Shown here: positions 40,914 through 61,756 of the stretch, piece by piece | How positions within the stretch are numbered: the stretch's first letter is position 1 | Layout: each line of letters begins with the position of its first letter | Source of the DNA: Marsupella aquatica | Taxonomy: Eukaryota; Plantae; Marchantiophyta | NCBI GenBank assembly: GCA_973895155.1 | Contig: OZ316891.1 | Coordinates: 2,161,324-2,225,323, forward strand | Direction: 5' to 3' | DNA length: 64,000 bases | Translations under genes and position numbers: made by a program | The notes under the pieces: generated by a model | What the model was told of the DNA's origin: nothing | The model's input: only the letters and a program-made list of their open reading frames with translations | Databases searched by the model: none

Positions 40914-41799
40914 GTGGTGTGGACGTGTAACGAAGGACCTAGTGAGACGTTTGGAGGCGATGGCGTGACTGGAGCAACAGAGTTGTATGTGTAGTGTGAG
41001 CTTGATGATACAACTCAGAATGAGACTTCCACGGGTGGTTCAAACACAGCAGCTTCAGTTGATCGAGAATTTTCAGATTAATATTCTGTCTCCTCCAACT
41101 GGGTGCCCAACATTGACAAAAAAGCCACCTGTGGGAAGCGGGTGCAAGCCATGATGGGTACAGCAGTCACAGAGTGTCGCCTTGGTCGAAGTGTGGTGGA
41201 AGGATTGATAGACGATCAGCGTCTCAGGTTGATGGTGACTGACAGAACCTGATGTTTGAGAAGCGAAAACGCAACATCCATTCAAATAGGGCCAAAAACC
41301 TTAGTAAAACATTGAGTTTGTAGTATGCGGGGTTTACTGAACGTTGCACTGCTAAGAGTCGCAGGGTGTGTAATTTTCCAGATTACCCTACTTACTCTCA
41401 AATAGCTATTAATATAAGACAAACTGCCTGGGTAATCCCAAAGGAGCGGTTGGGGACGCCCAGGACCTATTTTGGCACAAAAGGCCAGAGAATTTTGAAA
41501 AAAATATCGTGAACGGTCTGGCAGCCTGTCAGATGGGTAAAAGTCCCCCAGCATTCACTCTTTCTCCCCTGTAGAAAAAGCTATCGCAAGGGGACGTAAC
41601 AACTCTCACTCCCCCCTCTGTCCCCCTTCTGTCCTCCCTTCGTGAACTACGGAGCGCTACATCGCTCCCGCTCTGTCTCTGTCTAGCTATAGTAACTAGG
41701 ACTTGATCTTCGATTCTTCGGTACAATACAGTACGTATGTGCGGATGCTTTTGCTATTAGAGCTCATGGTGAGTGGCATTGAAGAGAACTAGATTTAAA

Positions 41800-42083
41800 C
41801 TCGGAGGTCTCACTATATGGGGACCTCCCCATCACCTGCAATGTTTTTGGGTCTCGGACCCCCTAAAATGTAAGAAAAAAAGTTTATTTTTTAACCCCTA
41901 TAAAGATGGAATTCCAAAAATTGGATTAAAAAGACCCTAATATTCTTATAAGTCTCAAAATTGAATAAAAAAGACCCTATTTTTCTTCTGCAAATTTTTT
42001 TAAGTCTTCTCTCAGAACCAATAAAATGACCCTATCCTTCGTTGCACGTGATATGCCATTTTTGTGGAAGTGAAACCCCTGAG
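41800..42083 (+). mobile_element. MITE, copy 1 (284 bp, 8-bp TSD)
   Basis: Imperfect TIRs CTCGGAGGTCTCACT...AGTGAAACCCCTGAG; exact TSD GATTTAAA at 41792-41799 and 42084-42091; homologous to 61963-62292. Confidence 0.85.
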
Positions 42084-43887
42084 GATTTAAAGTGAAATTG
42101 TGTCATGATGCACTATCAATCTCTTTCTCAAAACTATAGTCTATACCATGACACTATTTGCTGAGTTTGTTTCACCAAGTAAAGGGAAAGGAAAACTTTT
42201 AATGGGAGGGAATAGTCAAACTCTTGGATATGGAAATAGTTGTTGAGCAAATGACATCTCTTCAAAGACATCATGTACAATCATGATTGTGCAATATCCA
42301 ATGAAGAGATACGTCATTTAGCTCTCTAGTGGCTACTTCCACGAGAGAGCTTTCTTGAGCTTTGAGCTCATGCATTGCCCATGCAAATTAATCCATGGAC
42401 CCCATGTTATTTTAGAGGCAGTTATCTAGAAACTGAAGCCCAGATGGACCTCCAAGTTGAAAGAAAAATAAATTCAAAAATGGACAAGTCAATGCTTGAC
42501 ACTTGAAACAGTTGCCAAACTTACCAAGCCAACCATAATTAACATCAATCACAAAATCAGTTACAATGTGAACTACTGTTTAATTAATGTGTGGGTAGCT
42601 TAATTGCCCACTTCAGCAAAACGGTGCTCGACGGTTTCCTCCATGGTATTGAAGGGATGTCGGATGCACTCAAGTTGCATCAAAAGTAATCACTTTTCAA
42701 TTCCTACACGCAGAGAGACGAAGAGAGAGAAATCATCAGTGTCATCAAATCACTCACTTCACAAAATTGTTTGAAACAAAAAGTTTCATGGAACAAATCT
42801 CCAATTGTAAAATTTGGAATTGATCAAAAGCTAAACAAATTTAGAAACTGATGACCACTTTAGTACTTGATAGAATCTCTCAATGCCACACTCATTGGAA
42901 AGCTAGAGAAGATTGGAAACTCATAATCTCCTTGGAACTCAACTAAATCTATCTATGTTAATTTCATTAAAAAGCTAAAAAAATTCTAAAACTCATAATC
43001 TCCTTAGTACTCGATAAAATCTGTCAATTTTAGATTTATTCTCATGGAAGGGATCAACATTTCAAGGATTGTGCAACAAAGATTTCTATTCATGTTAGAG
43101 ATTATAAAATCCCGGGTACTATATATTTTTCAAATTACTTACTCAATTCTTATCGAACAGTAACAATCCTGAGCTCATTAGGACCGATCACCCTATTCAT
43201 TAAAACTGGAATTTCTCTAGTCCAGAAGTTGACCTTCAAATTTCTTATTTTACCCCCAAAAGTTCTATAACTTGTTCCCCAAAAACATACATTTTAGTGG
43301 CCAAATATACACTTTTTGAGGTCTAAAATTATAATTCTAATGCCCAAATTATTAATTAAATAATTCAGTTATCAATTATAAATATTTATTAATTAAAAGA
43401 TAATAAAGTGTTCTTATTATATATAATATAAACAATGAAAAAATAGAATAAGACAATATAATAAATTCAAATGACCCGTGATAACCAAGTTACACAAACA
43501 CGAAAGGTAAACCGGTAATGTATTATAAAAGTAAAAAACCTATTTTTATAGGGTCGAGACCACGTCTGCCCCAATGCAGGCTCTAGATGGTTTTGACCGG
43601 TTGTTGAATGTATATCAATTACTATGTAAAAATCTATGTCAAGATTATCTCGACCCAAATGTAGGGTCCACATAATTTTGACCCGTTGTTGAATCTATAT
43701 CTCTAGCTATTCCCTTTGTATAGGGTCAAGACCCAATAACCTTTTTCTGAGAACATATCTACAAGTAAAAGAGGATCAACAACATCTAGACTCAAATGGA
43801 TAGTACGCATAGCTTCACTTTTTTTTGAGTAAGAATATGTATACCTACAACTCACATTGTAACTGTTCAGTGTAGGGTCGAGATAAT

Positions 43888-44945
43888 CTAGACCCAAATC
43901 TCATGCTCCTCCACCCCGCAGAATTCATTTGAGCAAGTAAATCTAGACCCTGACGGGTCATATTTCATATCGCGATTGCAAAAATCGAGAGGCTTCCTAT
44001 TCCAGAACTTCATGGTGAGGTCCCTACACCTCAAGACTTCCAAAACAAATCCCCGATGATTGTCTCTATAGGGTCCTGTGTACTGATATCCAATTAACGT
44101 CTTTGCAAGGTCGTTGATCGCCTCCTCCGTCAATTCCTCCATTGGTGGTAATTGTTGCACTTCATTCTTGACATCCCAAGGAATTTCGTCCGCTGTGACA
44201 TCCAAGACTGTATGGATAACCGAATGAACCCATACCATACTACCCCACCGCTCCGTCAACAACGCATAAATGGCAGCTTGTTGATCTCTGTCCGCTAAAA
44301 TATTTATCATAGACCACTTTGGATGATTGATAAAAAGGTAGTGCTGAAGATTGAAGGCATGATACAATTTCCTGAGCAGAGGCCATAGTATTTCTGGAAA
44401 GAATGTATCATCCGTGGAGTGATGCAAAAATGAGGAAGGAAACAACCCACAATTCTCTGGATTTGCAAATGCCTTCATTGGAGTGTCATCAAGAAGGAGT
44501 GTATTAGTTTCGTTGTATAATCCACCATAACGTTTTCAAACCACCCTCAAATCCTTCAAATGAATATTTGCCTTCCCATCGGTAATGTCAGGCCTCTGGA
44601 TTCCAATATCGAATGTATCTTCTTGTGTGAGAATAAACTTGAATTGCTCTCGCTCTTCTTGACTAAAGATCAAATGAATCATTTCATCCGTCCTGGGTTT
44701 CCTTGCACAAGTCCAAATGGCAACATCAAATAACGAAAAAGCTACGATTAAGAACTCGTGAAGATGGGGTCGCTCAACATACATAAAGTTAAACCCTCCA
44801 CGTCTCCCCCAATGGACACCCTTGACACTTGTTGCACTACAGCGTGGTCCGGAACTTGGCGTTTTGACAGAATCCCAACACATTTTGTTGAGGACAAGAA
44901 TCAATAGCTTCCGTCTGATCGGACCGTGAAGTGGAGGCAAGGGTC
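43888..44945 (-). pseudogene. FCP1/NIF (HAD-fold CTD-phosphatase-like) domain; last exon of the cargo gene
   Basis: RKLLILVLN, ERPHLHEFL..AFSLFDVAIWT, HLKDLRVV*KRY, NTLLLDDTPMKAFANPEN. ORFs 44536..44940 and 43888..44478 share one frame with a single TGA. Phase-1 intron 44946-45050 (GTATGA...TTTGCAG) links it upstream. Confidence 0.8.
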
Positions 44946-46466
44946 CTGCAAAGAAGGAACTCCAATGTTAGAATTGTGGGAGATAAAACAAAGGAATGCT
45001 TGAGATGATCTCGAGCATCACAAGTGAATGAACAACAGTCAACGTCATACCTATTGTTGGTTGAAGGTCAGTAGTTGAAGAAATCTCAAGGCATCTTTGG
45101 AGATTATTGTCGACGCACTCCACAACTGGTAAGGGCCCGCCTATTTCTGTGAAGGTAGACATAATCATTTAGACGGTTGAATTTCAGGACTGTTCAAACT
45201 AACTTGGGTTTCAACCTCACGTGCTGAAAGACCCAAATTCATCTAGAAGGTTATCTCCTAGTTGGTTTTGGATGTCCAAATTTATCCCTCCGGGAAGGGT
45301 CTCAACAAGAGCTGGCTCAGACCAAACTGACAATAATTTGAACTTATCCTTCCTATACTTTCTAGGTCGAATAACCTTCTCAGACTGCTCTATAGAGACT
45401 TGTTGACCTTTTGACGGTCCATCAGTCCAAACATAATGAGTAGCACTTGCTTTGAGTGATTTGTAACCAGTTCTACCAATTTCAGTCCCCGGTTTCCTAA
45501 CAAAAGGGAGAATTACGGGGCTTCCAGTAGAAGAATCTGTGAAAACAAGCTTATTCTCTGAAGCGCAAAACATTTGGTCCAAGGGAGAGGACGATGCACC
45601 TGCCTCATCCTGAGGGGGAGTATGGCAGCCACTAGCTTTCTTAGTAGAGAAAATCTCATCCAATTGAGGAGGGCTTGGAATTGGTTGGCTAATTGCATCG
45701 TGCAAGGTGGATTCCTAGCCAACATCCAAGGTTGAAGACTGTTGTTCACGTTGTGCATCCCCAAGGTCACCCGATGAAGGAACACCTGGAACGTCGAGAT
45801 CATCTCGAGCATCATTTCCAAATTCAGGCAGTATTTCACCCTCCTCTTCCATGTAGCTTGTGATTTTTGGGCCCTCCGTTTTGCGATGCTCTAAATTCTC
45901 CGCAAATACTTCCTCATAAACACTGGCTTCCACTGGAGCTATGTCTAAGGCCGCCTCTTCTATTACAACGAGGGGACCGGCAGTAATTTCCTCAGATGGT
46001 AACGGCTCCTTGGGTGGCACATATAAAACCTGCTTGTTGTCATGAAGGAGCTGAGCAAAGGCTTCTGTGAATTCCATCTCTTGAGCTGTGTCCGAATACA
46101 CAAAACAATCCCGACCAAGAATGACACAAGCTTTCAATCTCTGTCCTCCAGAGAAGAAATCCAACACTGTATGACCTGGGCACGAGAAATAATCAACAAG
46201 ACGCTTTGTCATTCGCAAAGGCTTTGCTCTCGCATTTACAAAGCCACCACACCGACCGACCATCTCATAGGATGGGGCCATCTTCTTCAAAACTTTGACA
46301 TCAACAGTGGATTCATCAAGCTTCTCTTTCCCCTTTGATTGGTCTTTGTTGTTCCCAGTAGGGGCCTTCAAAGGCAAGACTGTGAAGTCTTTGTCCCACT
46401 TCTCACTGTAGTTCCAAAACGCATAAAAGTCATCAAAGAAAATTTGGGACCAGTCTGGTTCCTCTT

Positions 46467-49400
46467 TGTCGCACCCCTACCCTGGGCCTTAAATCCGGGT
46501 TAGTGTTGTGGTGCGACCTCGACCACCAGTAGGGGTGAGGGTTCGGGCAAGGAGGTGTGTAGTGACCTTCAATAGCCCTAAGTTGGGCTAAGCCGCTATA
46601 CTTACTGGTATAACACTCGCATAATTCGTACTTGACATAGGTATATTTATTTTCCACCGCTGGAATTTTCCCTCAGTTAGTGACGCGGACTAACTCCCGA
46701 CTTGGGGCTTTTCAAGCCATCGACGTGACAGGACCTTGTGACATGCAATGAGTGGAAATCCCTACCATTAGTCCGCACCCGGTACATCCCTTAAAATGGC
46801 GCCTTTGCCCGGACAAAGCATACACACAACACCAGTTACTCTCAGAAACATTAGGGGGAAAAGACTACATTTACTCAGCGAAGCATCAGTTTACATGGTT
46901 GACTCGACTTCAAAGGGGGTCAGCAGGCCCAACGGCAGTCGATGCCCAGTCTCTACGAGGCCCTGCCTCGCACTTGCCCAGCAAGCTCGACTCTGGCTCT
47001 CACTCCTTGGTACGCTCTGACCCTACTCAGGCCGGGACTCCCCGTGCCTCGCCTTTCTTCTGCTGAGATAACTAAGCCTTCTCCCCCTTCCCATCGTGGA
47101 AGGGGAAGCCTAAATACTACCATAGCGGAAGAGAACCGGAGGATACTACCTTCCGGGGCACTACCTACTGACTAACTAACTGCTGACTACTGGTCGCGCT
47201 GCACTGACCGGTTGACCGTCGACTACGAGTGTGCCAACCGGAATGGCAGCGGCCAAGCCTACTGACAAACTCTAGTCCGTTGATGGACTCCATCCTACGT
47301 TGGCTGATCCTAACTGATCGGCCCTAATTCTTCCTACTGCCGCTAATCGGCGCCTAATGACAGTCATTCTGTCGTTACGCCTAACTAAAAGATGCCGCTG
47401 ACTTAACCGCCTCGCGCGACGCCTGCTTCTACCCTTCGCTAACTACCCCTTACGTGTGTGCAGTGGTTGGACCAGGGCTGGTCCCCTTGTCGGGGCGAGA
47501 CCTCGAGCCGCCTTGATCAGAGGTGGGCCCAGGTTTTCCCCGCTGGAGGACGAGCAGGGTGACGCGGTCCTGCAAAGCCTTGTTGTCCCGTAATGCTTCC
47601 TCCGCCTCGTTTGCAGCTTCATCGGCTTCAGTCTGGAGCCGCGCCACCTCCAAGTTGAGCTGGTCGATGGCGTCGCGATGGACCTGGTCCTGCGCTAGCA
47701 ATTTATCTCGTTTGGCGGAGAGACCAACCACCTGCTGTGCTGCCTGCAGGAATTGTTTGTTGAGGTCGGTCAGGCTGGTAACCCGAGCCGAAGATTTTGA
47801 GCGTAATTGAAGCATGGTGTCGTCCAGCTTCTTGAGTTTGGCCTGCGCTCCGCTTAACTCCTGGGTTAGTCCGTCCCTCTGTTCGACAGTGCGGACTAAA
47901 TCCTCGCGGCGGGTCGTTGCCTCCTCCTCGAGGTGCTCTACCAGCATCTGGAGACGCCCGATCTCATTCCCCTTCGCCATGAGTTCTTCCTCCAAGCGGC
48001 TGACGATCCGTGGTTGGTGCTCTAACATGAAGAAGGCTGGCTGAAAGTACGCCGAGACTTGTTGTCCGATGTATGTCGCCAACTCCCCAGACATAGTCTG
48101 GCTAAACTTCTGGACCAGGTCGTAGACCATGGTCCCCGGGGCTACTTGGTAGTCCTCCATCCTCTCGGGTACCGGTGGTTCCTCGGCAGGGGCAATGAGC
48201 TCCTCCGTAGTCAGTGCTGGGGAGGGGAAGGTTTCTTCAGGTGGTGGAGGGATTGGGGGTGGTTGTACTGCAGGTAGCGGAGGCTCAACGGAAGGAGGCG
48301 GTGGAATTTCCACAGGGGGCGGTTGCGGAGTATTAGTCGGGGCTTCCGGCTTGGGGTTTGTCCGAGGGACAGTAGTCCGCGTAGTCGGGGTTGCCTCCTC
48401 TTGGGCGGGGGTGACATTACCCGGGGCTGAGGTGGCCGTATTCTTTCCTCTGGCCTCCCGCCGTGCCTTGTACCAGGCGAGGATAATGGCGATATGACTT
48501 CCCAAGTAAGTCTTCCCTCCAATAGCCATACCACCCTGAGCCCGCTTCAGCTCCCTCGAGAATCTTTGGTAGAAGAATTGGGCCCAGTTTCGTCGTTTGT
48601 ACTGTTCCACCTGCACGATCGTGCAGAGGGAAATCTCAGATCGTGGCTCAATCATGTGTAGGGTAGTCCGTATGAAGTTAAGCCGCTCCATACAGGTTAA
48701 GTTGGTGCACGCCCCCTGCTTGTATCCGTTGTCCGTCTTACCCTCGGGTTTGAAGTGCGCGGCGTATACTTCTTATCCCGAATTCGGATTTCCACCGGCG
48801 CCGGTCTGGTTGGTAGGCCAAAAATTTGCGTTAACCGATGCTCTATGAGTGATAAGGTCTGCCCCGAAACCTTGGTGGTCGACGCATCAGTGTCGAAATT
48901 GGAGATGAACTCACAAATCTCCTTCGGCCCGGTGGCGCACGGCCTCCATAGTAAGTGGGCGAACCGCTCCAACTGATGCTCCTTGAGATAGTCCACATGT
49001 TCGAGTTTCTTGATCGCGATCCAGACTACCTCGGGGACGCGGATTACCTGTAATAAGTTGGACTTCGGGTTATCCGGGGGCCGTCGGGTCTGGTTGGTCG
49101 GGGGGTTTGCTGGGGCAGGTGCAGGCGCGGCGTCGGTCCGTGTTGATTCGGGGGCCATCGTAGTCCTTGACCGCTTACGAGGACGCTGTTCGAGTTGCGG
49201 ACTAGCTCGCTCGGAACCCGAAGAACACTCCGCGTTGATTACTGGACGAACTTGGGACTGGTTTGGCGGTACTCCGGTGGTCATCGGTTGAGGCGCTGGG
49301 GTAGCCATATCCCAGTTGAAGGCGTTGGAGCTTTCCCCGAGGAACGTGAGATTACGCGCCGCTTCCCGTTGTTTGCTGATGTCTTCTTGGCGCTTTTCGG

Positions 49401-50303
49401 CTGCGATCTGCTGGTCTAGGTACCCCGGAATCTTGTCGAACTCCGCTTGAGTAAGCCGCTGGTTGCCCTTCAGCTTAAAGAACTTAGCTGGAACCTCAAG
49501 AATCGCCTCTGCTACCGATCTAAGCCCTTCCTCGCTGAGATATAGTTCGGTGATGTAGTCTCGCAACTCGTTATAGCTAGAATCCCTGGTGATGGCTGTC
49601 CTTTCGCAATTAACCAGTGCTACCTTGGTTACCAGCTTCGCGTACCTTCGTTCGTAAGCGGCTTTCTCGGGGCAAGAGTACCAGTAAGTCTCGGAGAACT
49701 TAGCACCTACCTCGCCAAACAAGGTCCAAAATCCCAAGGCTGTGAGGGTCATACTAACCTCGTAGTCCGGTTTGTTGCGTCCACTTTCCCACCTGGCTGG
49801 TCCTTTTTCGCGGAGGCCTCGCTCGTCCTGACTAAATCTGGCCACATTCCGCTCTTCTCCCTCGATAATTTCCTCGTAAAGGTCGACTGGATTCAATCAA
49901 AAAGGCGAGCGGATGGCAGCGTCCGTGAATTCCAAAAAGGTAAACATGAGTGAATGGCCCACAGTGCCATCGGCTCCTCTCTTATGGGGGTGCCAGGATG
50001 AGCCCGAGCGTGAGAAGGTCAGGCCGTTTGGTCATTGATAACGAGTTGAAGTCGGCGCCTCGGTCCAAGCGTGATTCTTCTAACTGATTTTTACTCCGCT
50101 GCCGCCACCATACCTCGGTCGTGCGTAATAATCCCTTTCCTGAACTCGTAATTATTCGGTTATCTTAACCTACTCCTAATCTAATCATAATGGCAACTTG
50201 GCGGCTATACGTGCTATTCTACGCTATGGCTACGGTCCTAATGACCGTATAAGTCCTAATCTTCGACCTGGGTTTGGTCAAGTGACACGTTACCCGTGTC
50301 ACA
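46467..50303. mobile_element. LTR-retrotransposon-derived insertion (solo-LTR-like, 3837 bp)
   Basis: Ends TGTCGCAC...GTGTCACA (TG..CA); exact 5-bp TSD CTCTT at 46462-46466 and 50304-50308; no second LTR copy and no gag/pol seen. Confidence 0.85.
47450..49896 (-). pseudogene. Retrotransposon extra ORF (~810 aa, one frameshift near 48770)
   Basis: ORFs 48697..49896 and 47450..48691. EICEFISNFD..TKVSGQTLSL..LTQIFGLP and NWAQFFYQRF resemble Gypsy accessory/plant-mobile-domain-type ORFs, followed by Pro-rich and coiled-coil regions. Confidence 0.65.
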
Positions 50304-51081
50304 CTCTTCACAACAAATTCCCCCAAAGATGATTGAGTCTCGGGCTCCAATGAGAAAATCTCCCTCCTCCTTGGGCAGCTGATCACGGTAGTAGCTCCCG
50401 TACTCCAGCTTCGTGTGGAATTTCTTCTCACGACGAATCTTTTCAAAGGCACTATGAATCTGGCCTATCAATGGGCCTTGACGGACAAAAAAGATTACTA
50501 AGAGCTCCGTCGAGTTCGCCATCTGCAAACAATACTCCAGCAAGACAAATTTTTTGGCATCTGTCCATTGCCGTTGTCGAAGACGACCAAAATCGACAAT
50601 GGAGAGTGGGCACGTCCTTTGCACCGAGTCAACAATCTCAGGCTTCATTGTCCTCATCAAATTATTGCTAAAAAATGTGCGATAAAGAGTATCCTCCATT
50701 GAAGGCAACCCGCCAAATACCTTGCAATATATCTGCTCAAGCCTAACAATGAGACTTTGCGGAAATGGGTCTTTTGGCTTATTTCTTTTTAGGAGGTTGG
50801 AAATCCAAACCTCTCTAGCAAGTTGTCTAAGTTTTGGCAACTCACCACGATCCATAAATGCAGGCAAAAATTGAGTTAGCTCAAACCAAGTGAGTGAATT
50901 GGCAAACCGATCCGGATACTTCAAAATGAAGTACTCCACAATTTTTGCCCTCAGCTTGGTCATGACTTTGAAAGTATGAGCCATATCACTCATTGATTGA
51001 ACATCAGATTTGTTGGCTGGGTCTTTCTTCAATAAAACCTTCTGTTGTTGAACGGTAGTAAAAACTTTCAGAATGTCATCA

Positions 51082-52463
51082 CTACTCGATCAGGTCTCCT
51101 TCAAAGCATCTAAACAATGCCGGCGTAATCATTTTTGTTGTCCGGGATTTCCCATTTATTTTTGAACCTAACTCCCCTAGACCATCCGGAAGAAGTCCCT
51201 TGACCCAATCGATGCACATTTGTCTCCAAGTTCGGAAGAGGTTCTCATCCGAAAACAACAACCAAAAAATATTCCTCAGATCGGATTTTCCAGTTGTTAT
51301 TTTGGCAAGGGCCATAAAATCCTGATCCAAACAATACAAAGAAAATCTGAGGCTCAAGACAATCTCGAGGTAGAATTAAGGAACTATGGTAAAATTTATG
51401 GGAGAATACATGAAGATAAATCAAATACAGAAACTTGACCTCGAGGCTCGAGACAATCTTGAGCTAGAAGTGGATTTGAGTTTGAATTTACCTGGAACTT
51501 TTGATGATCCGTTAGTCTATTGGACCCAATCACGGGTCTCTCCGGACGGCCACACTCGTCAAACTATCGACGGGCATGGACCATAGTATCAAGAAAACAG
51601 GACTCATACTCCATGGTCTTATTAACAATATTTGCCCTTTGTGAGTGTTGAGCAAGTATTGTTCTTGGAGTTCTGTCCGAAAGAATTTGTGACTTTTGAT
51701 ATTGCAGACTCTTTGCGACCTCCTTCAACTTTGCATCGCTCTTAGCCCAACCTATGATCCAAACAGCTGCCTTTGCCGAGTGTTGTCCACTGATTGCAAG
51801 GAACTGCACCTTCTTATTCTTAATACCCCACTCAAACTTCTTTCGATCCTCAGTAGTATTCTCATAATGGAGCAACTGCAAACTCTCTCTTGAATACGGA
51901 ATTAAATCCGCCACAGCTGGTACCATTCCAGGGTTTCTAACCATGGATTTTGTGACCTCCATGGCATGGTCTTTATTGAACATCCTATATACCAAAACTG
52001 CAGACGACGAATCTATACTAGTGATAGGAATGTCAAAAGTTTCATTCATGCCAAATGTGTAATACTCCTCAATCTCCTTAAGAACTTCGGCTCCTTCCTT
52101 AACGCTCTTTTCTCCCGGAGCATCTCCTGGAGTGCCATCATCATCAGTATGTGCATTCACACCCGAGGAAGATGCCGGAATGAGATCTACCTTGGGCGGC
52201 GCGAACTTTTTTTGAGGTGGAGCCTTCTTCGCTTTGCTTTCGGGTTTCTCATCTCTCTTCCTCTTTTGAGACACCTTTGCTTCCTTTTTGTCCAAACCGG
52301 ACGTCTTGTCTCCCGCAACTACAGATTTCAATTTACCTGTTTGTCTCCGATGAGACAGCACCCACTTTTTACAAGCATCCTCATCAAATTCTCTGGCTCC
52401 AAACACAAAATCAAGGGATATGGATTCAAACTCCCCCAATTTGGATTCCGACATTAGTCTCAA
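51082..52463 (-). pseudogene. ParB/Srx-like N-terminal domain of the cargo gene
   Basis: DIPITSID...YRMFNKDHAMEVTKSMVRNPG...FLAISGQHSAKA...AQHSQRAN follows the ParB pattern (ipi..I / R..f...l.el..Si...G / y.ii.G..R..A / ...EN). TAG at 51564-51566; phase-0 intron 51322-51491 (GTAAAT...GATCAG). Confidence 0.6.
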
Positions 52464-54005
52464 AACCTTCCACGTGAAAGAGTTGTGAATGCATCATCAC
52501 GATCAAACCCATACTTTTGACAATAAAGGAATCCAAAAATTATGTCCGCTCCAGATATAGGAGTATCTTCTAGCAAATTACTTGTAGTAAAACCCTCGGG
52601 GAAGAACCCCATTGATATCACGCTCAGTTGTTTCCTGGCTGCACGTTCAATGTTAAGATCGCAAGAGTAGTTTTTGGCGTGAAGTCTAATTAGAGCCCAC
52701 TTCCCTATCTTGTGGTTCTCCACCGTCAAAACCATGTCCTTACCGTTACTCGTCACAATAGAAACAACAGGCCCTAGAAGGCTGCACACTAGAGGATCGA
52801 CTGATGGAGACCTCGTCTTCACACAAATAATAGTTCCTTCCATGTCTTCAGTTTCAGCAAGCTCAATGGCCCAACAGAATCCAAATAAACCCTATCCAGG
52901 GCAGGAAACCTCAATTGCATGTTCATCTTCGACTACCAAATTAGGCGATCCCAATTTTGCACCTGGTATAGCCAAAATGTAGCAATTGTCAGAAATATGT
53001 ACTACAAAACCAAAAAACAAATAGGTGGTTCGAGATGATCTCGATCTTCCTTTTAAGTTTAATAGTCTGACATGTTCCAATGCCATTTCATCCGTGGAAT
53101 TTAAAAAGAGATTTCAAACCCAAGAAATCTAAAAAGATAACACAATAGTTAGGAAACACAATAGGCTCGAGATGATCTCGAGCCACCATCTGTTTAAAAG
53201 AAAAAGATAAGGGCTCGAGATAATCTCGATCCTCATATATATCAGTTGAGGTTTTATTCCATTGCATATCATGAACCAGTCAAATTTAACGAACAACATT
53301 TTCAAGAATGATCCAATGTCACCTATTCGACCACATTCAAAACCCTCTAACTCAGTGGTTTGTCATCTTCACAAACGAGTTGGAGGACTAAGAAAGTGGT
53401 CCAAAAGGCAAGCTTGGATCACAATGAAAAGGATATTAGTAATTCAAGTAGACGACATGGAGTCCTTCCAACTGGAAGAAATTGGCCAAGGGATACGAAT
53501 GACCATAATGGAAGATGGTGAGGGATATATTTGGCTTGAGACGATCTCGAGCCTAACATGTCAAACGAGTGATCCAAATATCATATTCAACAATGAACAT
53601 CATATTCAATCAATGATTAAAATTCACTTTCTCCATTGACTTCTAATACCCACAAACCCGTTCGGATGTCAATGATCAGAACGAGTTGGAGGGTACAGAA
53701 GTCCTTGGAGGAAGGAAATTTTAGATATTTTGGATATATGATGTTTCACTTTTGAAGGATAAGCTAAGGGTTTCCAACTTGAAAAAACTCACTAGGTCAC
53801 ATGCAGGAATTGCATATTGGCTCGAGACGATCTCGAGCCTCATGCCACTTACATCAAATGCAAAATCAATTGATAGATCACAACTTTTGAAGCAAAGTAT
53901 TGCAAAAAACATCAATAGGCTCGAGATGATCTCGAGCCTCAACTGCATCCAAGGAATCCAGAAACAAGTGGACCAATTGAAGCTCAAGACGATCTCGAGT
54001 TAAAC

Positions 54006-54150
54006 CTGAACAGAACAAAGATGATGAATTACGTTTAATGGTGCGATGGATCTGATGCGCTGAGTCTAGATGGGTCTGAAGCTCTTCGCCAACGGTTGCA
54101 AGATTGTACTCAACGAAGTCCTCCTTGGAGAAATCTACAACAGTCGACAT
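54006..54150 (-). pseudogene. Probable first coding exon of the cargo gene
   Basis: GCCATG start, MSTVVDFSKEDFVEYNLATVGEELQTHLDSAHQIHRTIKRNSSSLFCS, then a CAG|GTTTAA donor followed by motif-rich intron-like DNA. Confidence 0.45.
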
Positions 54151-54197
54151 GGCTGGTGAAGAGAGGAACGTACTACGGGCTGAGAACTTAAAAACAA

Positions 54198-54356
54198 ATC
54201 TCGAGCCTAAACAGAAAATCTCGACCCTATCGAAGCTTGAGCCTAAACACAAAATCTTGACCCTATAAAATCTCGAGGAAGAAACCTAATCTCGACCCTC
54301 TGCAATCTTGAGGCTAATACAAGGATCTCGAGGCAAGAGCGCGAAACAATCTAGAG
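54198..54356. repeat. Array of nine ATCTCGAS half-sites
   Basis: Starts at 54198, 54218, 54234, 54254, 54270, 54289, 54305, 54325 and 54349 (mostly alternating 20/16-bp spacing). Confidence 0.8.
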
Positions 54357-55518
54357 GCAAGGAGGCAAGGGATGCGAGGAGGCGAGGAGGCAAATGTGAA
54401 AATGGGGAATTCAAAACCCCTGAAGCCACTATAAGCCCCTCGGGGGTCGGCCTTGGCCGTGCCAAGTGTGCCAGGGCTCGTGCAGGCTCAGGCAGGCTGC
54501 AACCTGCTGGGTGCGTACAGTCATTATTACGGTCACACGTGTTATCATTATTGTTATCCGTACTTCAGCCCTGCCGCGAGTTTAGCCATGACACAAGTTC
54601 ATCCAAGCCGTCTTAATGGCCTTTTTGTCTGTCAGGGTTTTATATATTGCTTCTCTTTGGTCTCCAGCGGGTCATTCTTCTCATTTCGTTTCATTGCTCG
54701 CTCGTTTCTCCCTCTGCCTCTCTCTGCTCTCTCTCTCCCTCTCCCTCTCTTTGGCTCTAGATTTCTGCTCTGATCTCTTTCTGTTGTTCTTTTCAAGCCT
54801 GGTTGTGGACTCTACGTTTGTGTTTAGGATATTTTGAGAAATTCTCATTTTAAGCCCTGAAGGAGGTCTAAAATAATTGAGCTCCTATCTTTTAGAAAAC
54901 CAAACCTTTTCAGCTTATACTAGTGTCGGTCAAAATCCATTTGGAAGCCTTTTCCCTCTATTTGATGGCCTTTTAGAAGCTATTTCTCAGTGTCTGGAAG
55001 TAAACTAGGAGCCTACTTTCTTAATTGCACCAAATCATTCCTCTAGATCATCTAGAACCATTTATATGTTCTTATTTTGGGTGGCTTATTATTCATGATA
55101 GTTTCTTTGTCAAATACAATGTCCTTTTTGGCTTGAGATCATCTCGAGTCATAAGTTTGATCCACAAACTTATTCACTTTTGCCTTCTTTCTAATGGTGC
55201 ATTCAGTTTTCCTTCTTATAATTGAGTTTGTAGAGAGTCGGAGGTATAGAATCTGAATTCAGTATTTAGTGAGATTTCATATTTTACCTCGAGATCGTCT
55301 CGAGCTATTTAATACTTCTGAATTTTTACATATTGGAGTTTTTGGTCCCTCTTCTACCTCGAGATCGTCTCGAGGTAGAAGAGTTTCTTATTTTCTCTAT
55401 CACACAATTTTGTGGGATAAATTTCTACACTTGGGTTTTTTGGTTTGTTTTTGTAGTCACTTTACCTCGAGATCATCTCGAGGTAACTACATCCAACAGT
55501 TTGGACCACGTTTTCAAA

Positions 55519-58500
55519 ATGGGGATTTTCTTTTGAGGGGACAAGGTTTGCCTCGTAATCGATGGAGTGGAAGTTGCTTGCGGGACCGTCCTCAAGGTTG
55601 ACCCGGGTGACTCAGTGTGTAATGTTGATTTGGGAAGTAATCGTATAGGAGTTCTCATTGAGAAGTGCTATGAGGGATCATGGGAAATTCCTTACCCTTT
55701 GCCGCCGATCAGGACCCTGTTTGATGCTGTCGACTCCTGCATTATTTGGGATGCGTCTTTTGCATATTTGAAGTCACAGTCAACTCCAGCAACAACACAA
55801 ATGGATGCCTCTTGTTCTACAAAGGATACGGTTCCCGGTTTTGTACCAGACAAATCTTCGGTGGGAAGTTTTGGAGACTTGATTATATCTGGCGATGAAG
55901 TTGAGCTATGGATCGGCAATCAGATTGTGGCTCGTGGATTTGTGTTCAAGACGAATCCCGATGAGACCTGTCACAATGAAAGACTTGGCACTTCTAGGAT
56001 TAGTGTGAAAATATGTGAAGTTTTTCAAGGAAGGGAGAGGTTACCCTTTCCTCACAATGGAGCCGATACCGTTCAGGAAGCATTGGACACTTTTGTATTC
56101 TGGAATTTAAAGGATGTTACTCGGAGGAGTTCTTCCCAGGATATACTAAACGACCTGTCCACACGGGATGTTTTTTCAAATTATAATTTCAAGGATTATA
56201 GTTTGCGTTCTAATTGGATGACCGAGGAGGTGGAATTGTATGCTGAGGATAATTGGACCAAAGTGGGGGTTGGCATCATCACAGTTCCTTTCGAGTCAGG
56301 TGCAATTGATGATGATGTTCTTGGACCAGATCACGTTGGGGTTGCTGTCACACGCGTGATTGACCCTCTATTTTTCCCAAATATCTCCCCAGGAGTGCCT
56401 GGTCTTGTTAGGTGGGCCGTCCGTTCACTTCTGCTAATATCAAGGGGTATTTTTCTTCTGGATCTCATTGAAGAGGTTTCTCCAAAACCAATTATTGATG
56501 GTCGAGATCATCTAGAGGTAGATATGAAAGGTGACACTGAGTTTTCGAAGCGCCCGTATAATTTCATCAAGAGAACGAAGGTCAACCCAGATGAAAAAAG
56601 GAAGAAGCACTTGGAGTCTCGGGCGATACTGAAAATCACAGAGGAGGAAATCGACTCCATCCAAAGAGAAGGTCACTTGTTGTAAGTTGAAGTGTTGCCT
56701 CAGCATGCCGAGAGAAGACCTACAGGCGATAAGGAGGGAATACCATGGGATGTCAAGCGACAACAAAACCAGTCACATTCTCACTCTTTTTGGCTGTAGG
56801 GAGAAGGAAGTGGAGACAAAAAGATATTTCGTTGTAAGAAGTAGACTTGTTTGCAAGGGTGCTATTATTAAAATGCATGAATTCAGCACTGCCAAGTATT
56901 ATGATTACAAAAATCAATATGAAGCAGGTTGCACGGTTGGATTCCACGGAAACAAGGGTTCACACAAGACACGGGGAAGCACCTTGCATGCTCGTGCTTT
57001 GTTGGAGTCCATTCTAACCCAAAACGGAGAACCCATGCCACATCTTCCCTATGGAGGGTCTCACAGGACTGACACGGTTGAGTACAGACTTCCATCTTGT
57101 TTCACGAAGAAAGAGATTTTTGAGGAGGTATACTCAAAAATGGAATCAGATGGCTACGTGAAGGTGAGTGAAAAAACTATGTATAAACTCTGGAGTGAGT
57201 CCTTCATGAATTTTGACTTTCACAAGGGAAGTGCATTTGCAAAGTGTACACTTTGCACTGATTTCAAAGATCAGTTGATGCGGGAGAAGAGAAAGAAAGA
57301 GCGTTTAGAGATTGAGGAAAGAAGAGCTCGCCATCTTTGTGAGCAAATGTCTAGGAGATATGTTTACTATGCTCATAGGGTTCTTGCGAAGAAGGATCCT
57401 GAAAACTATCTTTGCATTATACATGACAAGATGGACCAGGCCAAGACATGGATCCCTAGGTTGGTCCCCACTCCTAAATCATTGTCTGGTAGTGGTCAAC
57501 CGCTCCCCATTGCGCTCACTGGGATGTTGACCCATGGAAGGGATCCCGGAGTGTATGCTCACTTCAGTTTCACTGGGCTTTGGCCGGGAGATGTAGACTT
57601 CACAGTGACATCATTGGCCAAGTGCCTTAGAGATCTGGAGGATTACAAGGGGGACAAATCTGGAGACCTCCTTGAAGGATTATATTGGGCTGCAACGAGG
57701 CCAATTTTTCAATCTCTTTTGGACTTTGAAGCGTTTCTCGCAGGTTACTTAGAACCCAAAAAAGTCTCAATTGCTAGATTTCAAGGAGCTGAAGATGACC
57801 AAGACGACTTTGGTGTTGATCCCAAGGCTACGTCTACCTCTTTCAAACCATTGCCAAGGCACCTGACCTTGCAAATGGATAATTCAGGGAAAGATAACAA
57901 AAACCAGTACGTGATGGCATTTTGCAATGAGCTTGTTAGTAGAGGGATTTTTGAAACAGTGCAGATGTCGTTTCTCATGGTTGGTCACACCCATGAGGAT
58001 GTCGATGCATTGTTTTTGAAAGTATCCAACCAAGTGAAGTACAAGGAGGTTTCTACCCTCTTGGGATTGATGGCTGAGGTTTGGGAGTGTGAAAGCATTC
58101 ATCCTGTCCCACGGTTGATCCAAGAGGTTGAAGAAATCATCCCATTCCTTAATCGTTACATTGAGTTTTTGAAGAAGAGTTGTAAGGATGAGACCTCTAC
58201 AACATATCGTGAGCGGTTTCCTTTGGTGAAATATTGGGAGATGGTGGTGCAAGTATTATCTGGGGAGCTTACAATTGAAGGGGAGGTAGAATACAATTAG
58301 CATTGACATATGAATTCTGGCCAAAAACCAACCACGGAACTGGTAACAAGGTTAATAATACAAGAACCTCTGAACCATTGGGGGAGCCTAGTAGTAGTAC
58401 ACAGAATCCACAAATGGTGGAGCTTCAGAATGAGTACCTGGAAGAGATGGAGGAAGAGTTAGGATGTTTCCGACTCACAATATAATCAAGCTGCAACATT

Positions 58501-58996
58501 TGTTGGCGCTCGACACGAGCGAGAACTTGCACGTTGGATTCCTCTGCAGGACATTCAAGAGGGTCACTTTGTATTTCTCCTTCCAGAGGATGAATGGGAA
58601 AAGAAGAATGGGAAAGAACGTTTCTGGTTGGTGAGAGCTTTGGGTGTTGTGGACCCAAACCATGAAGTTCCTTCAGGAGACTTGTAATGCAATGAGAATT
58701 CTCCTACTAGTACACGGTATGCTCCTATGTTCCAAGTGCAATGGTGGAGGCCTAAACATGGTAAGCATGATGCATCGGATCATGATGTGTGATATTCACG
58801 TTGCTTTCAGACCACTAAGACTTGGGAGGTGGATCCTGGGTTTGATAGTGCCACTGAACGTTGGAAATTTGCTAATTCTGCTATGTATGGATTCAAGTCA
58901 CGCTCAAGAGAAGAAAATATAATTGTTAGAGGTTTGACCATTCCCAAGAATGTTTTGAAAACACTCAAAACCTACATGGAAGGGATTGTTGAGTAA
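55519..58996 (+). pseudogene. DDD-type transposase (Sola1/DUF7869-like) with three N-terminal Tnp1/En/Spm-like domains
   Basis: ATG at 55519 (TGA at 55534); frameshifts near 56680 and 58300. Motifs AKCTLC, IHDKMDQAK, LQMDNSGKDNKNQY, FLMVGHTHEDVDALF. C-terminal FWLVRA...FQVQWWRP; stop at 58994-58996. Confidence 0.8.
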
Positions 58997-59022
58997 GTCA
59001 AATGTTTTTTAGTAGTCACTCT

Positions 59023-59118
59023 GTCAGAGTGAGGGAGTCTATGTCATTTAGTTTGGAATTAGACATGTCAGAGTGAGGGAGTCTAATTATGTCAATTAGT
59101 TTGGAATCAGACATGTCT
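59023..59118. repeat. ~43-bp tandem duplication
   Basis: TGTCAGAGTGAGGGAGTCTA..TGTCAwTTAGTTTGGAATyAGACA occurs twice. Confidence 0.85.
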
Positions 59119-60954
59119 TTAGTACTTACTGTTGGTTAGTACTAAGTAGTATATCTATTTAAGTAACTAATTATTATAATATTTTGGGATACTAGTTTGT
59201 ATAGGTGGAGGTAATTGGACTTGGATGCCTTTATAATATCAATACAGACTATATATTACATGAAGTCTTAATATCCATGATAGGATGTGAGTGCCTCTTA
59301 GTACTGTCTAGTAGTAAACCTTAGTTTCAACTCAAGTTGCTTAGAATGTAACAAATTACTTGTCTGAATGGATAGTAAGCCAGGTATCATTCAAATTTAA
59401 TATATTAAATGCTCTCAATTAGTAACTAAGTAGAAGGTTAATTTAGCTAGCTAAGGGTAGAGATCATATTATTTGAAGCTTTACTAGTTATATGGGTAGA
59501 GATCATATTGAAGCTTTACTAGACACTTATATTCTATTAGTCAAATTGAATCAATGTAAGTAAGTTCTACTTCTTATCCAATATATTTTACATTATTATC
59601 ACCCAAATGTTTTTCTTTAGAATCCAAATTAATATTTAAATTTCTCCTATGTTCAATCTTGATCCCCCAAATGTACAACTCCCACTGCCCAAATGTACAA
59701 CTCCCACTGCCCAAATATATATTTTTTGGTGCCTAAATGTCCAAAGATCAAAGAATTTTCCAATTTTAATGAATAGACTGATACCGTCTCTTCGAGATCT
59801 TTCCAATGCCATATTATATGTGAGTTTTCATTATGATTTGACTCAACAATGTCAAATCAAAAATTGCTGCCAGGAAATTTATGTTTTGAATAAAATCAAA
59901 ATGTAAATTAAATTGTACGTTACTAGGAGCAGTTTTACCTCAATCTTTTTGTCTTTTGATTTGCATGTCAGTTTTTTTACATTCTTTTTTACGGCACGAC
60001 GTCCCAATTTTTATAGCAAAGTTTCCACAAACACGAATGCAGAAGTTAATTTTATCCAAAAAAGAGTCTCTTCCTGTTTGCAGCGTGCCATGATCATGTG
60101 ACATGCTGTGGACCCTGGAATTTTGGAAATGACATGTTAGGCATTACCACGTGTACTGTTCACATGTTCCAATGAAGAATTCATGTGTGAATCAATAATA
60201 TTATGTTTCATATTTATTATTGCAAGCACTATATGATCTTCAGTTGGGGGATGACTACCAAGACCTGTAGGAGCCAAGCTCTATCCAAAATAGGTGTTAT
60301 CAACGGAAATGAGATACAATTGTAAAAATCAAACTATGAGGTGAAAGAAAACATTATAACCTCAAATTTATAGAATATTGTGTCATAAATATATTCATTC
60401 TTTAAAGTAAATCAGGTCATCAATATTAAAATAGAGAATATTCCTAGAGTAATCTATTTGTAAACTAGAATTATTTATATTATTTAGTCTAATATCACAT
60501 GTGGCACCTCAAAATATAAACTAACTTAGCCTCCAAAAGATGTCATCCGTTTTGTCTAACATGCCCTGCTTTTGAACAACCCTTCTTACTTATAAAACTA
60601 CATTTGTATAATTTTGTGGTTGTTTCAATTAATTAAATTACAAATATTAGTCACAAATTGATAAATAGTACTTTTCCTTGAAATGATAAATAGTACTTTT
60701 GAAATGCATGCATGTGTTTTGGGGTTTCATTAAGGTGTGCTAGACATCTACCCTAGGGTCTAGAGCGGGTCTCGAGTTATTATGTAACCATAGTTAGTCT
60801 AGTCGTAGTTAGGTACTTGTCGATCAAGTTAGTTTGGATAGTTATGTTACTTTGTATATGGACAAGTCTGCACGTAGGAGTTAAAGAGCTTTGTATATGG
60901 ACAAGTAGGAGAGCTTGTGATCCAGAGACTTGGTATGATCTACACATCCTCGTA

Positions 60955-61058
60955 CACACCTAGATTGCAATAAAACTCTAGGGTAGCCACAAAGGGGAGG
61001 ATACCCACACCTAGATTGCAATAAAACTCTAGGGTAGCCACAAAGCGGAGGATACCCA
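60955..61058. repeat. 51-bp tandem duplication
   Basis: CACACCTAGATTGCAATAAAACTCTAGGGTAGCCACAAAGsGGAGGATACC occurs twice. Confidence 0.9.
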
Positions 61059-61756
61059 GGAATCCGACAGGGACCCAAACCAGGTGAGGAGGGAGAGAGG
61101 GTTGAACCAGGGCCCCAAAGTGGGCCAGCCAGGGGCCAAGGAGAAAACAGTAGTCTCCCACAATTGCACCTCACCCACACATTCACACACATACCCTCCA
61201 CACCCCTAAGCTTATGTGTTAGTGGAGGGGGATTGAACATGGGACATTTAGTGATGAATGCTATGTCAACAGTAATTACATTTTGCATGTATTTGCAGAT
61301 ATCTCACCAAGACATAACTATTCAGAGCCTAGCTTACTACTCTAGCGTCAAAGTGTGCAATTCTAAGAACTAAGGTCTAGAATATGACAATTCCCTGCCC
61401 ACCCCCATCAAATTACAGACCACATAAACAGTCCAATGTGGAAGAAGCACTCCACTCTGTATTATAACCTCGCGGTCAGGGGTAAGGCCCATTTGAGGCT
61501 GGGAATTGTATGCTGAAAAGGGGCTTTGGGATCAGTGAAAACATGTTCCTCCGAAGATGCTCCTCTGGGAAAATCTTTTGTGAGAGAGAATGAGTGAATC
61601 ACTTTGGAGTCTGGTCACGGTAATAAGTAGGGGTCGGCAAGGGACTTGGACGCTCTTGTTAAACGAGGGGCCAGGCAAGGGACGAAATTGGATTCTACGA
61701 AAAGGCAGACACTTTTAGTAGTCGCTTCCCAGGCTCGGTGGCCTTGTGTTTTTAAA

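What the first reader, a model, noticed from the sequence alone, without database searches (positions are those of the whole stretch)
43500..59000. Candidate self-regulating transposon system: transposase, chromatin-enzyme cargo and cognate palindromic sites
Seen: head-to-head transposase and ParB-like/MTase-fold/phosphatase genes around a ~1.4-kb intergenic region, with an element-restricted palindrome family. Established: bacterial ParB loads at palindromic parS sites and spreads; Arabidopsis VANDAL transposons encode VANC proteins that bind motifs in their own non-coding DNA to counter silencing. Inference: the cargo protein binds the palindromes and marks or protects the element and/or modulates Pol II, a parS/ParB-like anti-silencing module I do not know to be described in plants. 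This copy is dead (many stops).
Basis: partly seen in the sequence, partly recalled or inferred. Interest (0 to 1): 0.9.

Follow-up and report, generated by a model that had tools for sequence, protein, structure and literature searches.

The report
Liverwort transposon with ParB-like helper gene
A broken copy of a 12.8-kb cut-and-paste jumping gene, likely from a liverwort, carries a second gene whose protein is predicted to fold like the bacterial DNA clamp ParB, plus about 19 copies of one mirror-image DNA word that this protein likely grips to keep the element switched on, a design already proposed for seaweed transposons but untested.

Summary
The element is real. It spans 43187-59782, with 25-bp inverted ends, a 4-bp target duplication and an empty-site joint in one run.

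A DUF7869 (Sola-like) transposase lies head-to-head with one fused gene: ParB/Srx fold (AlphaFold plus fold search), beta-class methylase-like domain, NIF-like domain. Riccia sorocarpa has the same fusion; 6 of 38 such gene models lie within 3 locus tags of a DUF7869 gene (0.6 expected).

The palindrome CTCGAGAY-N-RTCTCGAG has 14 near-perfect copies in the element and 0 in shuffles; 18 of 20 looser sites are non-coding. Related transposase lineages carry their own palindromes.

No helix-turn-helix was shown. Moss-type relatives have palindromes without detectable cargo, so the transposase may be the binder. The ParB-methylase accessory idea is already published for Ectocarpus Sola1-1 and red-algal Plavaka.

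Verdict: a land-plant variant of a known but untested kind, with likely dead enzyme domains. Binding and function are untested.

The parts
43183..43186 (.). Left 4-bp target-site duplication (ACCG)
   Evidence: empty-site joint 43184 to 59786 in run X3, table 5c
43187..43211 (+). Left terminal inverted repeat, 25 bp, 22 of 25 matching the right arm
   Evidence: (I11)
43550..43960 (.). Left subterminal cluster of variant palindromes and half-sites (GGGTCGAGA...TCTCGACCC type; sites at 43638 and 43877)
43888..44943 (-). Accessory gene, 3' part: NIF/FCP1-like phosphatase-fold domain (44335-44943) with the catalytic motif degenerate (LILVLNK at 44884-44904; Riccia ILDVEG); one stop at 44536
45217..46461 (-). 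Accessory gene: second half of the beta-class methylase-like domain (motif I-like DFFSGG at 46144-46161), then an acidic linker; one stop at 45715
46467..50303 (.). Nested 3,837-bp insertion, TG...CA ends, 5-bp CTCTT duplication, 55% GC, no internal terminal repeats (solo-LTR-like; inferred); absent from other copies
   Evidence: joint 46461 to 50304 in 4 of 4 runs
50304..51321 (-). Accessory gene: helical region after ParB (fold unassigned), then first half of the methylase-like domain with degenerate motif IV (IVDFGR at 50583-50600; Riccia FLDLTHP/FLDVTHP)
51322..51491 (-). GT-AG intron holding two palindromes (51353, 51447); position supported by the Calypogeia gene model P0111
51492..52100 (-). 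Accessory gene: ParB/Srx-fold domain (ISGQHS motif at 51777-51794)
52463..52984 (-). Accessory gene: conserved N-terminal beta-rich domain; only weak PH-like matches (Z up to 4.7), unassigned
52985..55527 (.). Divergent intergenic and leader region, about 2.5 kb, with 12 palindromes (53029, 53166, 53214, 53535, 53821, 53920, 53983, 55041, 55132, 55288, 55358, 55466) flanking a GC-rich core (about 54340-54760; likely bidirectional promoter, inferred) and a half-site array at 54197-54340
44999..45015 (.). Palindrome in a non-coding stretch (likely intron) upstream of the NIF exon
45793..45809 (.). Palindrome within the acidic linker of the accessory gene
55528..58996 (+). Transposase: three N-terminal repeats related to Transposase_23/PF26133-bearing homologues, then CxxC (57245), HDKMD (57422), MDNS (57875), GHTHEDVD (57983) of DUF7869, and a C-terminal domain; frameshifts near 56673 and 58289, stops in the last part; one palindrome at 56501 in a linker
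59758..59782 (-). Right terminal inverted repeat
59783..59786 (.). Right 4-bp target-site duplication (ACCG)

Best explanation
This is a dead copy of a cut-and-paste transposon, likely of the Sola superfamily and likely from a liverwort, whose fused accessory protein is predicted to have a ParB-type fold and would likely load as a dimer on the element's own palindromes to keep the shared promoter region open against host methylation, likely as a scaffold because its methylase-like and phosphatase-like domains lack their catalytic motifs. Shown: element ends, layout, fusion, linkage, predicted fold, palindrome family and its non-coding placement, degenerate motifs. Inferred: that the accessory protein is the binder, that it dimerises or spreads, and that the effect is activating. 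The pseudo-methylase may still bind DNA or SAM and the NIF-like domain may dock on Pol II or another phosphoprotein; both are guesses.
For: Cargo and transposase travel together: in run X1, near-identical contigs over cargo (depth 305-377) and transposase (426-439) stand against a unique flank contig at 11 (the tool warns that depth is no copy number). In Riccia sorocarpa 6 of 38 cargo models lie within 3 locus tags of one of 40 DUF7869 models, null 0.58, p about 1e-5, and three of those transposases fall in the window's clade (100/99). ParB/Srx fold. A palindrome implies a two-fold symmetric binder, and ParB, Noc and KorB bind such sites (established knowledge, recalled; also stated in 10.1101/2025.02.11.637652). 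18 of 20 sites are non-coding although only 35% of the element is, p=6e-7; 12 flank the divergent promoter, and others sit in introns of the cargo gene, the placement reported for VANC21 motifs (PMC5735166). The same palindrome leaves peptide traces in the read-through of the same intron in P0102, a cargo relative at 54% identity (3 traces in one protein; 0 of 300 shuffled sets reach 3). Catalytic motifs: none of 14 motif-IV matches is DPPY/SPPY-like, 5 of 5 NIF motifs read DVEG, the window reads DFGR and VLNK. Printed precedent for the same hypothesis in algae.
Against: No helix-turn-helix or other DNA-binding domain could be assigned in the cargo (Foldseek no match at E<=0.001; VIA-align best Z 4.7; inconclusive on a 691-residue model). 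The ParB arginine patch (recalled as GxxRxxA) reads ISGQHS in 50 of 66 motif matches, so CTP clamp chemistry is not assured. No cargo was detected in any of 30 related transposase loci (best iE 1.4 against 2e-99 for the window control), although several carry palindromes, among them the moss-type L021/L022 (8 sites; 4.2 and 3.0 kb upstream held) and L014/L015 (2-6 degenerate sites; 10 and 7 kb upstream held); these are decayed copies. Palindrome type follows transposase lineage, which fits either binder. 32 of 38 Riccia cargo models have no listed transposase within 3 tags. In this copy 7 of 24 mismatches in the sites are CpG-decay type, so the sites were methylated at some time. Nothing here shows whether binding activates or represses.
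Confidence: 0.4

Rival explanations
1. The palindromes are binding sites for the transposase itself, which activates or assembles on its own element as AtMu1 transposase and Spm TnpA do; the ParB-fold gene has another job.
For: Palindromes lie upstream of, or inside, related DUF7869 transposases in loci without detectable cargo. Motif type tracks the transposase tree (2 changes for 3 groups, 0 of 200 shuffles as low; near-copies inflate this). Transposases can be sequence-specific activators (10.64898/2026.08.24.746577, abstract and sections 4 and 6). The N-terminus is 39% identical to a Calypogeia protein bearing Transposase_23.
Against: The sites do not resemble the terminal repeats and are absent from the right subterminal 780 bp. 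Most intact relatives are on contigs too short to show cargo (at most 2.8 kb upstream for L001-L011), and the long ones are decayed. Sites occur in introns of the cargo gene.
Confidence: 0.25
2. The accessory protein binds the palindromes but acts as a KorB-like repressor of the divergent promoter, or as a clamp that helps pair the ends or tether the excised element, not as an anti-silencing factor.
For: KorB is tied for the best structural match (Z 8.0, rmsd 2.8, 94 aligned). Sites flank a divergent promoter like operators, and a cluster lies inside the left end. The similar fungal family DUF3723 rides on Starships with unknown function.
Against: The fused domains (methylase-like, NIF-like) and those reported in algal relatives (methylase, 2OG oxygenase) point to chromatin or transcription. 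The right end lacks sites.
Confidence: 0.2
3. The accessory protein is an active 4mC or 6mA methylase with an unusual catalytic motif that marks the palindromes, as proposed for Ectocarpus Sola1-1.
For: Beta-class methylase homology (M.RsrI, profile E=2.8e-4); the motif I-like TVLDFFSGG is kept in 16 of 20 matches; liverworts have functional 4mC enzymes (10.1101/2021.02.12.428880).
Against: No DPPY/SPPY-like motif in 14 of 14 homologue matches or in the window, whereas MpDN4MT1 has TSPPY.
Confidence: 0.1
4. The palindromes are neutral by-products of local duplication and bind nothing.
For: Some lie in short tandem units (46-bp array in L021).
Against: In the window the flanks differ between sites while T..AGAY is invariant over 38 arms; the same core occurs twice in L002 at 59-62% protein identity; other lineages keep other palindromes.
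Confidence: 0.05

Closest known systems
Sola1-1_Ec32 of Ectocarpus (PMC12477816; passages; supplement rows)
   Same: Giant Sola element, 4-bp target duplication, one accessory gene on the opposite strand fusing a ParB-like domain to an N4/N6 methylase; self-binding and self-modification proposed; its best transposase match is listed as Sola1-1_PPa (by its name a Physcomitrella element; recalled).
   Different: Here a land plant; an extra NIF-like domain and an N-terminal domain; methylase motif IV degenerate; 25-bp rather than 282-bp inverted ends; dispersed palindromes (the word 'palindrom' does not occur in that paper's main text). Direct sequence homology to the Ectocarpus proteins was not tested.
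PAG3 and PAG2 of red-algal Plavaka transposons (10.1101/2025.02.11.637652; passages)
   Same: ParB-like accessory protein, inverted-repeat units beside it, proposed to bind and modify its own element; a PF01555 methylase in the same cassette.
   Different: Different transposase superfamily; PAG3 effector is a 2OG oxygenase; repeats form tandem arrays there and are mostly dispersed in introns and leaders here.
VANC/VANDAL of Arabidopsis (PMC5735166; passages)
   Same: Element-specific motif at high density in introns and intergenic DNA; lineage-specific motifs.
   Different: No protein homology seen; VANC motifs are non-palindromic and arrayed in one orientation; VANC function is demonstrated, this one is not.
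Spm TnpA and AtMu1 transposase as activators (10.64898/2026.08.24.746577; abstract, sections 4 and 6)
   Same: Clustered family-specific motifs in plant DNA transposons; the transposase here has Transposase_23-related repeats.
   Different: TnpA motifs are terminal and non-palindromic; no ParB-fold gene.
Bacterial ParB/parS, Noc/NBS, KorB (structures 6sdk, 7ol9, 8qa8; biology recalled)
   Same: ParB/Srx fold and short palindromic sites in several copies.
   Different: GQH in place of the arginine patch, no helix-turn-helix shown, no ParA partner found.
Fungal DUF3723 of Starships
   Same: Language-model features of the ParB-plus-helical region score 0.95-0.96 to DUF3723 clusters; both are conserved accessory genes of large mobile elements.
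   Different: No Pfam DUF3723 hit in 47 members; Starships use a tyrosine recombinase.

Membership tests
Sola superfamily (Sola1) | 4-bp target-site duplication | tested here: met
   ACCG on both sides, empty-site joint; 4 bp listed for Sola1-1_Ec32
Sola superfamily (Sola1) | Terminal inverted repeats | tested here: met
   25 bp, 22 of 25 match
Sola superfamily (Sola1) | Transposase homologous to curated Sola transposases | not testable with these tools
   No Repbase sequences held. The protein is DUF7869; the CxxC, D, DN..NKN, GH..D layout resembles Sola from recall only; no PDB match; atlas blank outside DUF7869
ParB-methylase accessory proteins of algal transposons | ParB-like domain fused to a PF01555-type methylase on the strand opposite the transposase | tested here: met
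ParB/parS system | ParB/Srx N-terminal fold | tested here: met
   pLDDT 91.6 model; Foldseek E=6.4e-4; VIA Z 8.1, rmsd 3.9, 113 aligned
ParB/parS system | Arginine patch GxxRxxA for CTP binding (motif recalled) | tested here: not met
   ISGQHS in 50 of 66 motif matches, none with the arginine; closer to the DGQHR/DndB type (weak DndB hit E=0.04 in 2 of 47)
ParB/parS system | Helix-turn-helix DNA-binding domain after the ParB domain | tested here: inconclusive
   Helical region predicted with good local confidence but unassigned in a 691-residue model
ParB/parS system | Several cognate palindromic sites | tested here: met
   Sites present; that they are cognate is inferred
ParB/parS system | ParA ATPase partner | tested here: not met
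   No ParA family in the Pfam scans of the element's frames
ParB/parS system | Nucleotide-dependent loading and spreading | not testable with these tools
   Needs biochemistry
Beta-class N4C/N6A DNA methyltransferase | Domain homology and motif order (IV before I) | tested here: met
   Pfam N6_N4_Mtase weak hits in the window and in 14 of 27 Riccia models, M.RsrI E=2.8e-4; all below Pfam's cut-off
Beta-class N4C/N6A DNA methyltransferase | Catalytic motif IV (D/S/N)PP(Y/F/W) | tested here: not met
   DLTHP/DVTHP in 13 of 14 matches, DFGR in the window; position of motif IV inferred from alignment
FCP1/SCP (NIF) phosphatase | NIF domain | tested here: met
   Above cut-off in the window (29.6 bits) and 4 of 27 Riccia models
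FCP1/SCP (NIF) phosphatase | DxDx(T/V) catalytic motif (recalled) | tested here: not met
   DVEG in 5 of 5 Riccia matches; VLNK in the window
VANC anti-silencing system | Dense element-specific motif in non-coding DNA | tested here: met
   18 of 20 sites non-coding
VANC anti-silencing system | Mutator-type element and VANC-type protein | tested here: not met
   Transposase is DUF7869, no MULE family hit
VANC anti-silencing system | Sequence-specific loss of DNA methylation in trans | not testable with these tools
   Needs transgenic methylome data
DUF3723 | Pfam PF12520 match | tested here: inconclusive
   No Pfam hit in 47 members; atlas feature score 0.95-0.96 with 175-190 shared features

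The most novel reading that the evidence does not exclude
Land-plant Sola-like transposons carry a eukaryotic ParB clamp that loads on lineage-specific palindromes (CTCGA...TCGAG arms with a 6-, 7- or 8-base spacer), slides over the element and uses dead methylase and phosphatase domains as decoy readers to block host silencing; it would be the plant branch of one ancient site-and-clamp module shared with algal PAG3 and fungal DUF3723, and a liverwort would let it be tested genetically.
Probability: 0.2. Interest if true: 0.85.

Novelty: new variant of a known kind. Interest (0 to 1): 0.55.

Why it matters
ParB-fold accessory genes of eukaryotic transposons have been proposed in print to recognise and modify their own element, but I found no test of it. 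This family gives a defined candidate site, a recently expanded family with near-identical copies, and lineage-specific site variants for swap experiments, in a plant group with genetic tools. The loss of catalytic motifs suggests that the conserved function is binding, not marking. If the module spreads from short sites, it would be a programmable way to shield DNA from silencing and might explain fungal DUF3723.

Tried and rejected
No whole genome is held, so copies could not be collected directly.

Searching long proteins with the methylase piece found nothing (85 candidates). Cargo-based locus searches found no relatives in metagenome, viral or prokaryote contigs. The ParB profile found only low-complexity hits in PDB sequences. 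The transposase profile had no PDB match and no atlas hit outside DUF7869. Rfam found nothing in 42000-61000. No RNA holder was listed, which is no evidence on expression.

The N-terminal cargo domain gave only weak PH-like matches; a UniRef label 'BAH domain' on P0194 was not reproduced by Pfam. Two Trichinella DNase II hits are chance repeats and were dropped from all alignments. The first HMM scans of the loci printed no rows and had no working control; one search is the valid one.

A link to Marchantia DN4MT1 was considered and not supported: DN4MT1 has TSPPY and no DN4MT1-labelled protein appeared in my searches; no direct comparison was possible.

The two papers that define Sola features were not held. 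Earlier-finding look-ups by place and sequence were blank.
Full report
Element boundaries. The window holds a 25-bp inverted repeat pair at 43187-43211 and 59758-59782, 22 of 25 bases matching, each flanked by ACCG. Contigs of public runs laid on 41500-61499 include one joint in run X3 from 43184 to 59786 (table 5c), the empty site expected for a 4-bp duplication with one base changed. The flanks are themselves a higher-depth repeat, so the element sits inside another repeat. A 3,837-bp insertion at 46467-50303 has TG...CA ends and a CTCTT duplication. It is skipped by a joint in 4 of 4 runs. Without it the element is 12,754 bp. No genome is held. The nearest named homologues are from the liverworts Riccia sorocarpa and Calypogeia fissa, so a liverwort source is likely, not shown.

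Family state. In run X1, contigs that differ from the window by about 1.5% cover cargo (depth 305-377) and transposase (426-439), while a flank contig with no difference has depth 11. Read naively this is about 30-40 similar copies with both genes; the tool warns that depth is not a copy number. The frameshifts at 56673 and 58289 are absent from much of the laid sequence (3 of 4 and 4 of 4 runs), so other copies are less broken than this one. Whether any is fully intact is not shown.

Transposase. The + strand gene (55528-58996) matches DUF7869 (E=8e-38) and has 99 homologues, mostly Riccia and unnamed contigs. Conserved columns include C205/C208, D265, D416, N417, N422, K423, N424. The N-terminus holds three repeats, 39% identical to Calypogeia P0028, which bears Transposase_23. 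I file it as Sola-like from the 4-bp duplication, from a recalled motif layout and from the Ectocarpus precedent; homology to curated Sola proteins could not be tested.

Accessory gene. tblastn with Riccia P0184 places five collinear segments on the - strand: ParB region, helical region, two halves of the methylase-like domain on either side of the insertion, and NIF. P0184, P0189 and P0205 carry methylase-like and NIF domains in single gene models, so this is one fused gene. The 178-residue ParB piece has 69 hits among 1.84 billion representatives, two of them chance DNase II repeats. Its AlphaFold model (pLDDT 91.6) matches Noc, ParB, sulfiredoxin and KorB. The motif is ISGQHS in 50 of 66 matches, without the arginine of bacterial ParB (bacterial motif recalled). 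The atlas places the ParB-plus-helical region next to fungal DUF3723 (0.95-0.96), but Pfam gives no such hit. A model of the N-terminal and helical regions gave no assignable fold. The methylase-like part matches M.RsrI (E=2.8e-4), keeps a motif I-like DFFSGG, and lacks DPPY/SPPY in 14 of 14 matches. The NIF motif reads DVEG in 5 of 5 Riccia matches and VLNK here. Both domains are therefore likely inactive enzymes; this is inferred from motifs.

Linkage elsewhere. Of 38 Riccia cargo gene models, 6 lie within 3 locus tags of one of 40 DUF7869 models; chromosome-wise and local-shift nulls give 0.58 and 0.53, p about 1e-5. The other 32 do not; both lists are incomplete and orientation is unknown. 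Three of the linked transposases group with the window's in a 12-row clade (100/99; 29 rows, a chosen subset of loci and proteins, midpoint root).

Palindrome. CTCGAGAY-N-RTCTCGAG has 14 matches at one mismatch or fewer, all inside the element, against 0.00 in 100 shuffles. At three mismatches 20 lie in the element and 1 outside (60760); 18 of the 20 are non-coding although 35% of the element is, p=6e-7. Twelve flank the GC-rich centre of the 2.5-kb intergenic region and two lie in the intron after the ParB exon. None lies in the right subterminal region or in the insertion. Seven of 24 mismatches are CpG-decay type.

Palindromes in relatives. Among 30 metagenome loci with related transposases, the closest, L002, has two sites with the same core. 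L003 has 7 of TTGGCCA-NN-TGGCCAA; L004, L007, L008, L009 have 1-4 of CTCAAACT-NN-AGTTTGAG; L021 and its near-copy L022 have 8 of ATTTGGC-N4-GCCAAAT, mostly in a 46-bp array. Allowing CpG decay, CTCGA...TCGAG arms recur with a spacer of 7 (window, 12 sites), 8 (L004 group, 1-3) and 6 (L021, 3); this pattern was defined after seeing the data. Most of the other loci show no family above simulation. Peptide traces of the window's palindrome occur three times in cargo relative P0102, twice in the read-through of the same intron, and Calypogeia P0028 reads RDGLD where the window's transposase linker site reads RDHLE (could be plain protein conservation). Against my reading, none of the 30 loci gave a cargo hit. 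L001-L011 hold at most 2.8 kb upstream. Seven loci hold 7-10 kb upstream, about four distinct places, all decayed and in the clade of the Ceratodon protein or near it; L014/L015 still show degenerate sites. So the binder could be the transposase.

Mechanism. I give 0.40 to the accessory protein binding the sites and keeping the element active as a scaffold, 0.25 to the transposase as binder, 0.20 to the accessory protein binding as repressor or transposition aid, 0.10 to an active methylase, 0.05 to neutral repeats. Binding, dimerisation, spreading and the sign of the effect are all untested.

What is known. Earlier AI notes pointed to two papers, which I then read in passages. PMC12477816 describes Ectocarpus Sola1-1_Ec32 with an opposite-strand ParB-plus-N4/N6-methylase gene and proposes self-binding and self-modification; its supplement lists a 4-bp duplication and best match Sola1-1_PPa. 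10.1101/2025.02.11.637652 describes PAG3 with adjacent inverted-repeat arrays and the same proposal (its supplements are closed and may list further lineages). Also seen: PMC5735166 passages; 10.64898/2026.08.24.746577 abstract and sections 4 and 6; 10.1101/2021.02.12.428880 passages; PMC4738411 passages; 10.1101/2021.12.13.472469 and 10.1101/2025.02.28.640899 passages; PMC5751038, PMC10294476, PMC5199201, PMC4455052 passages. Iyer 2011, cited there for green algae, was not seen. Searches for DUF7869 (0 papers), for ParB with transposable element, liverwort and cargo (0) and for ParB-like accessory methyltransferase transposons (5 papers, only Ectocarpus relevant) found no land-plant report; subscription journals are not covered.

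Verdict. The system is a new variant of a published but untested kind: new host group, added NIF-like domain, likely dead enzymes, and a defined, lineage-specific candidate site. Interest 0.55.

Noticed in passing
window 46467-50303: High-copy 3.8-kb TG...CA insertion with a 5-bp duplication and no internal terminal repeats; it holds two long minus-strand frames (440 and 399 codons) without a convincing Pfam hit. Looks like an unusually long solo LTR or non-autonomous retroelement that encodes protein.
   Followed up: partly
window about 41900-43186 and 59783-60060: The element inserted into another, higher-depth repeat whose ends I could not define; it has a 72-bp tandem array at 42826-43037.
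   Followed up: partly
window 35454-41039 (- strand): Decayed LINE with ORF1, endonuclease and reverse-transcriptase-like frames (recognised by eye; not scanned).
   Followed up: no
window 23937-25430 (- strand): F-box/Kelch-like host gene frames (recognised by eye; not scanned).
   Followed up: no
L003 1929-5141; L007 1596-5048; L004 821-4048: Apparently intact 1,070-1,150-codon DUF7869 transposases, each with its own upstream palindrome family; good material for testing transposase binding.
   Followed up: partly
L021 2083-2857: 46-bp tandem array in which two different palindromes alternate (TTGGC-type and CTCGA-type), upstream of a moss-type transposase.
   Followed up: partly
P0181 residues 290-640 (Riccia homologue): Atlas features tie the ParB-plus-helical region to fungal DUF3723, which suggests that the Starship accessory protein is ParB-like; the two Starship papers searched do not use the word ParB.
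   Followed up: partly
window 58995-59782: The right subterminal region has no CpG at all (o/e 0.00) and no palindrome, unlike the left end.
   Followed up: no
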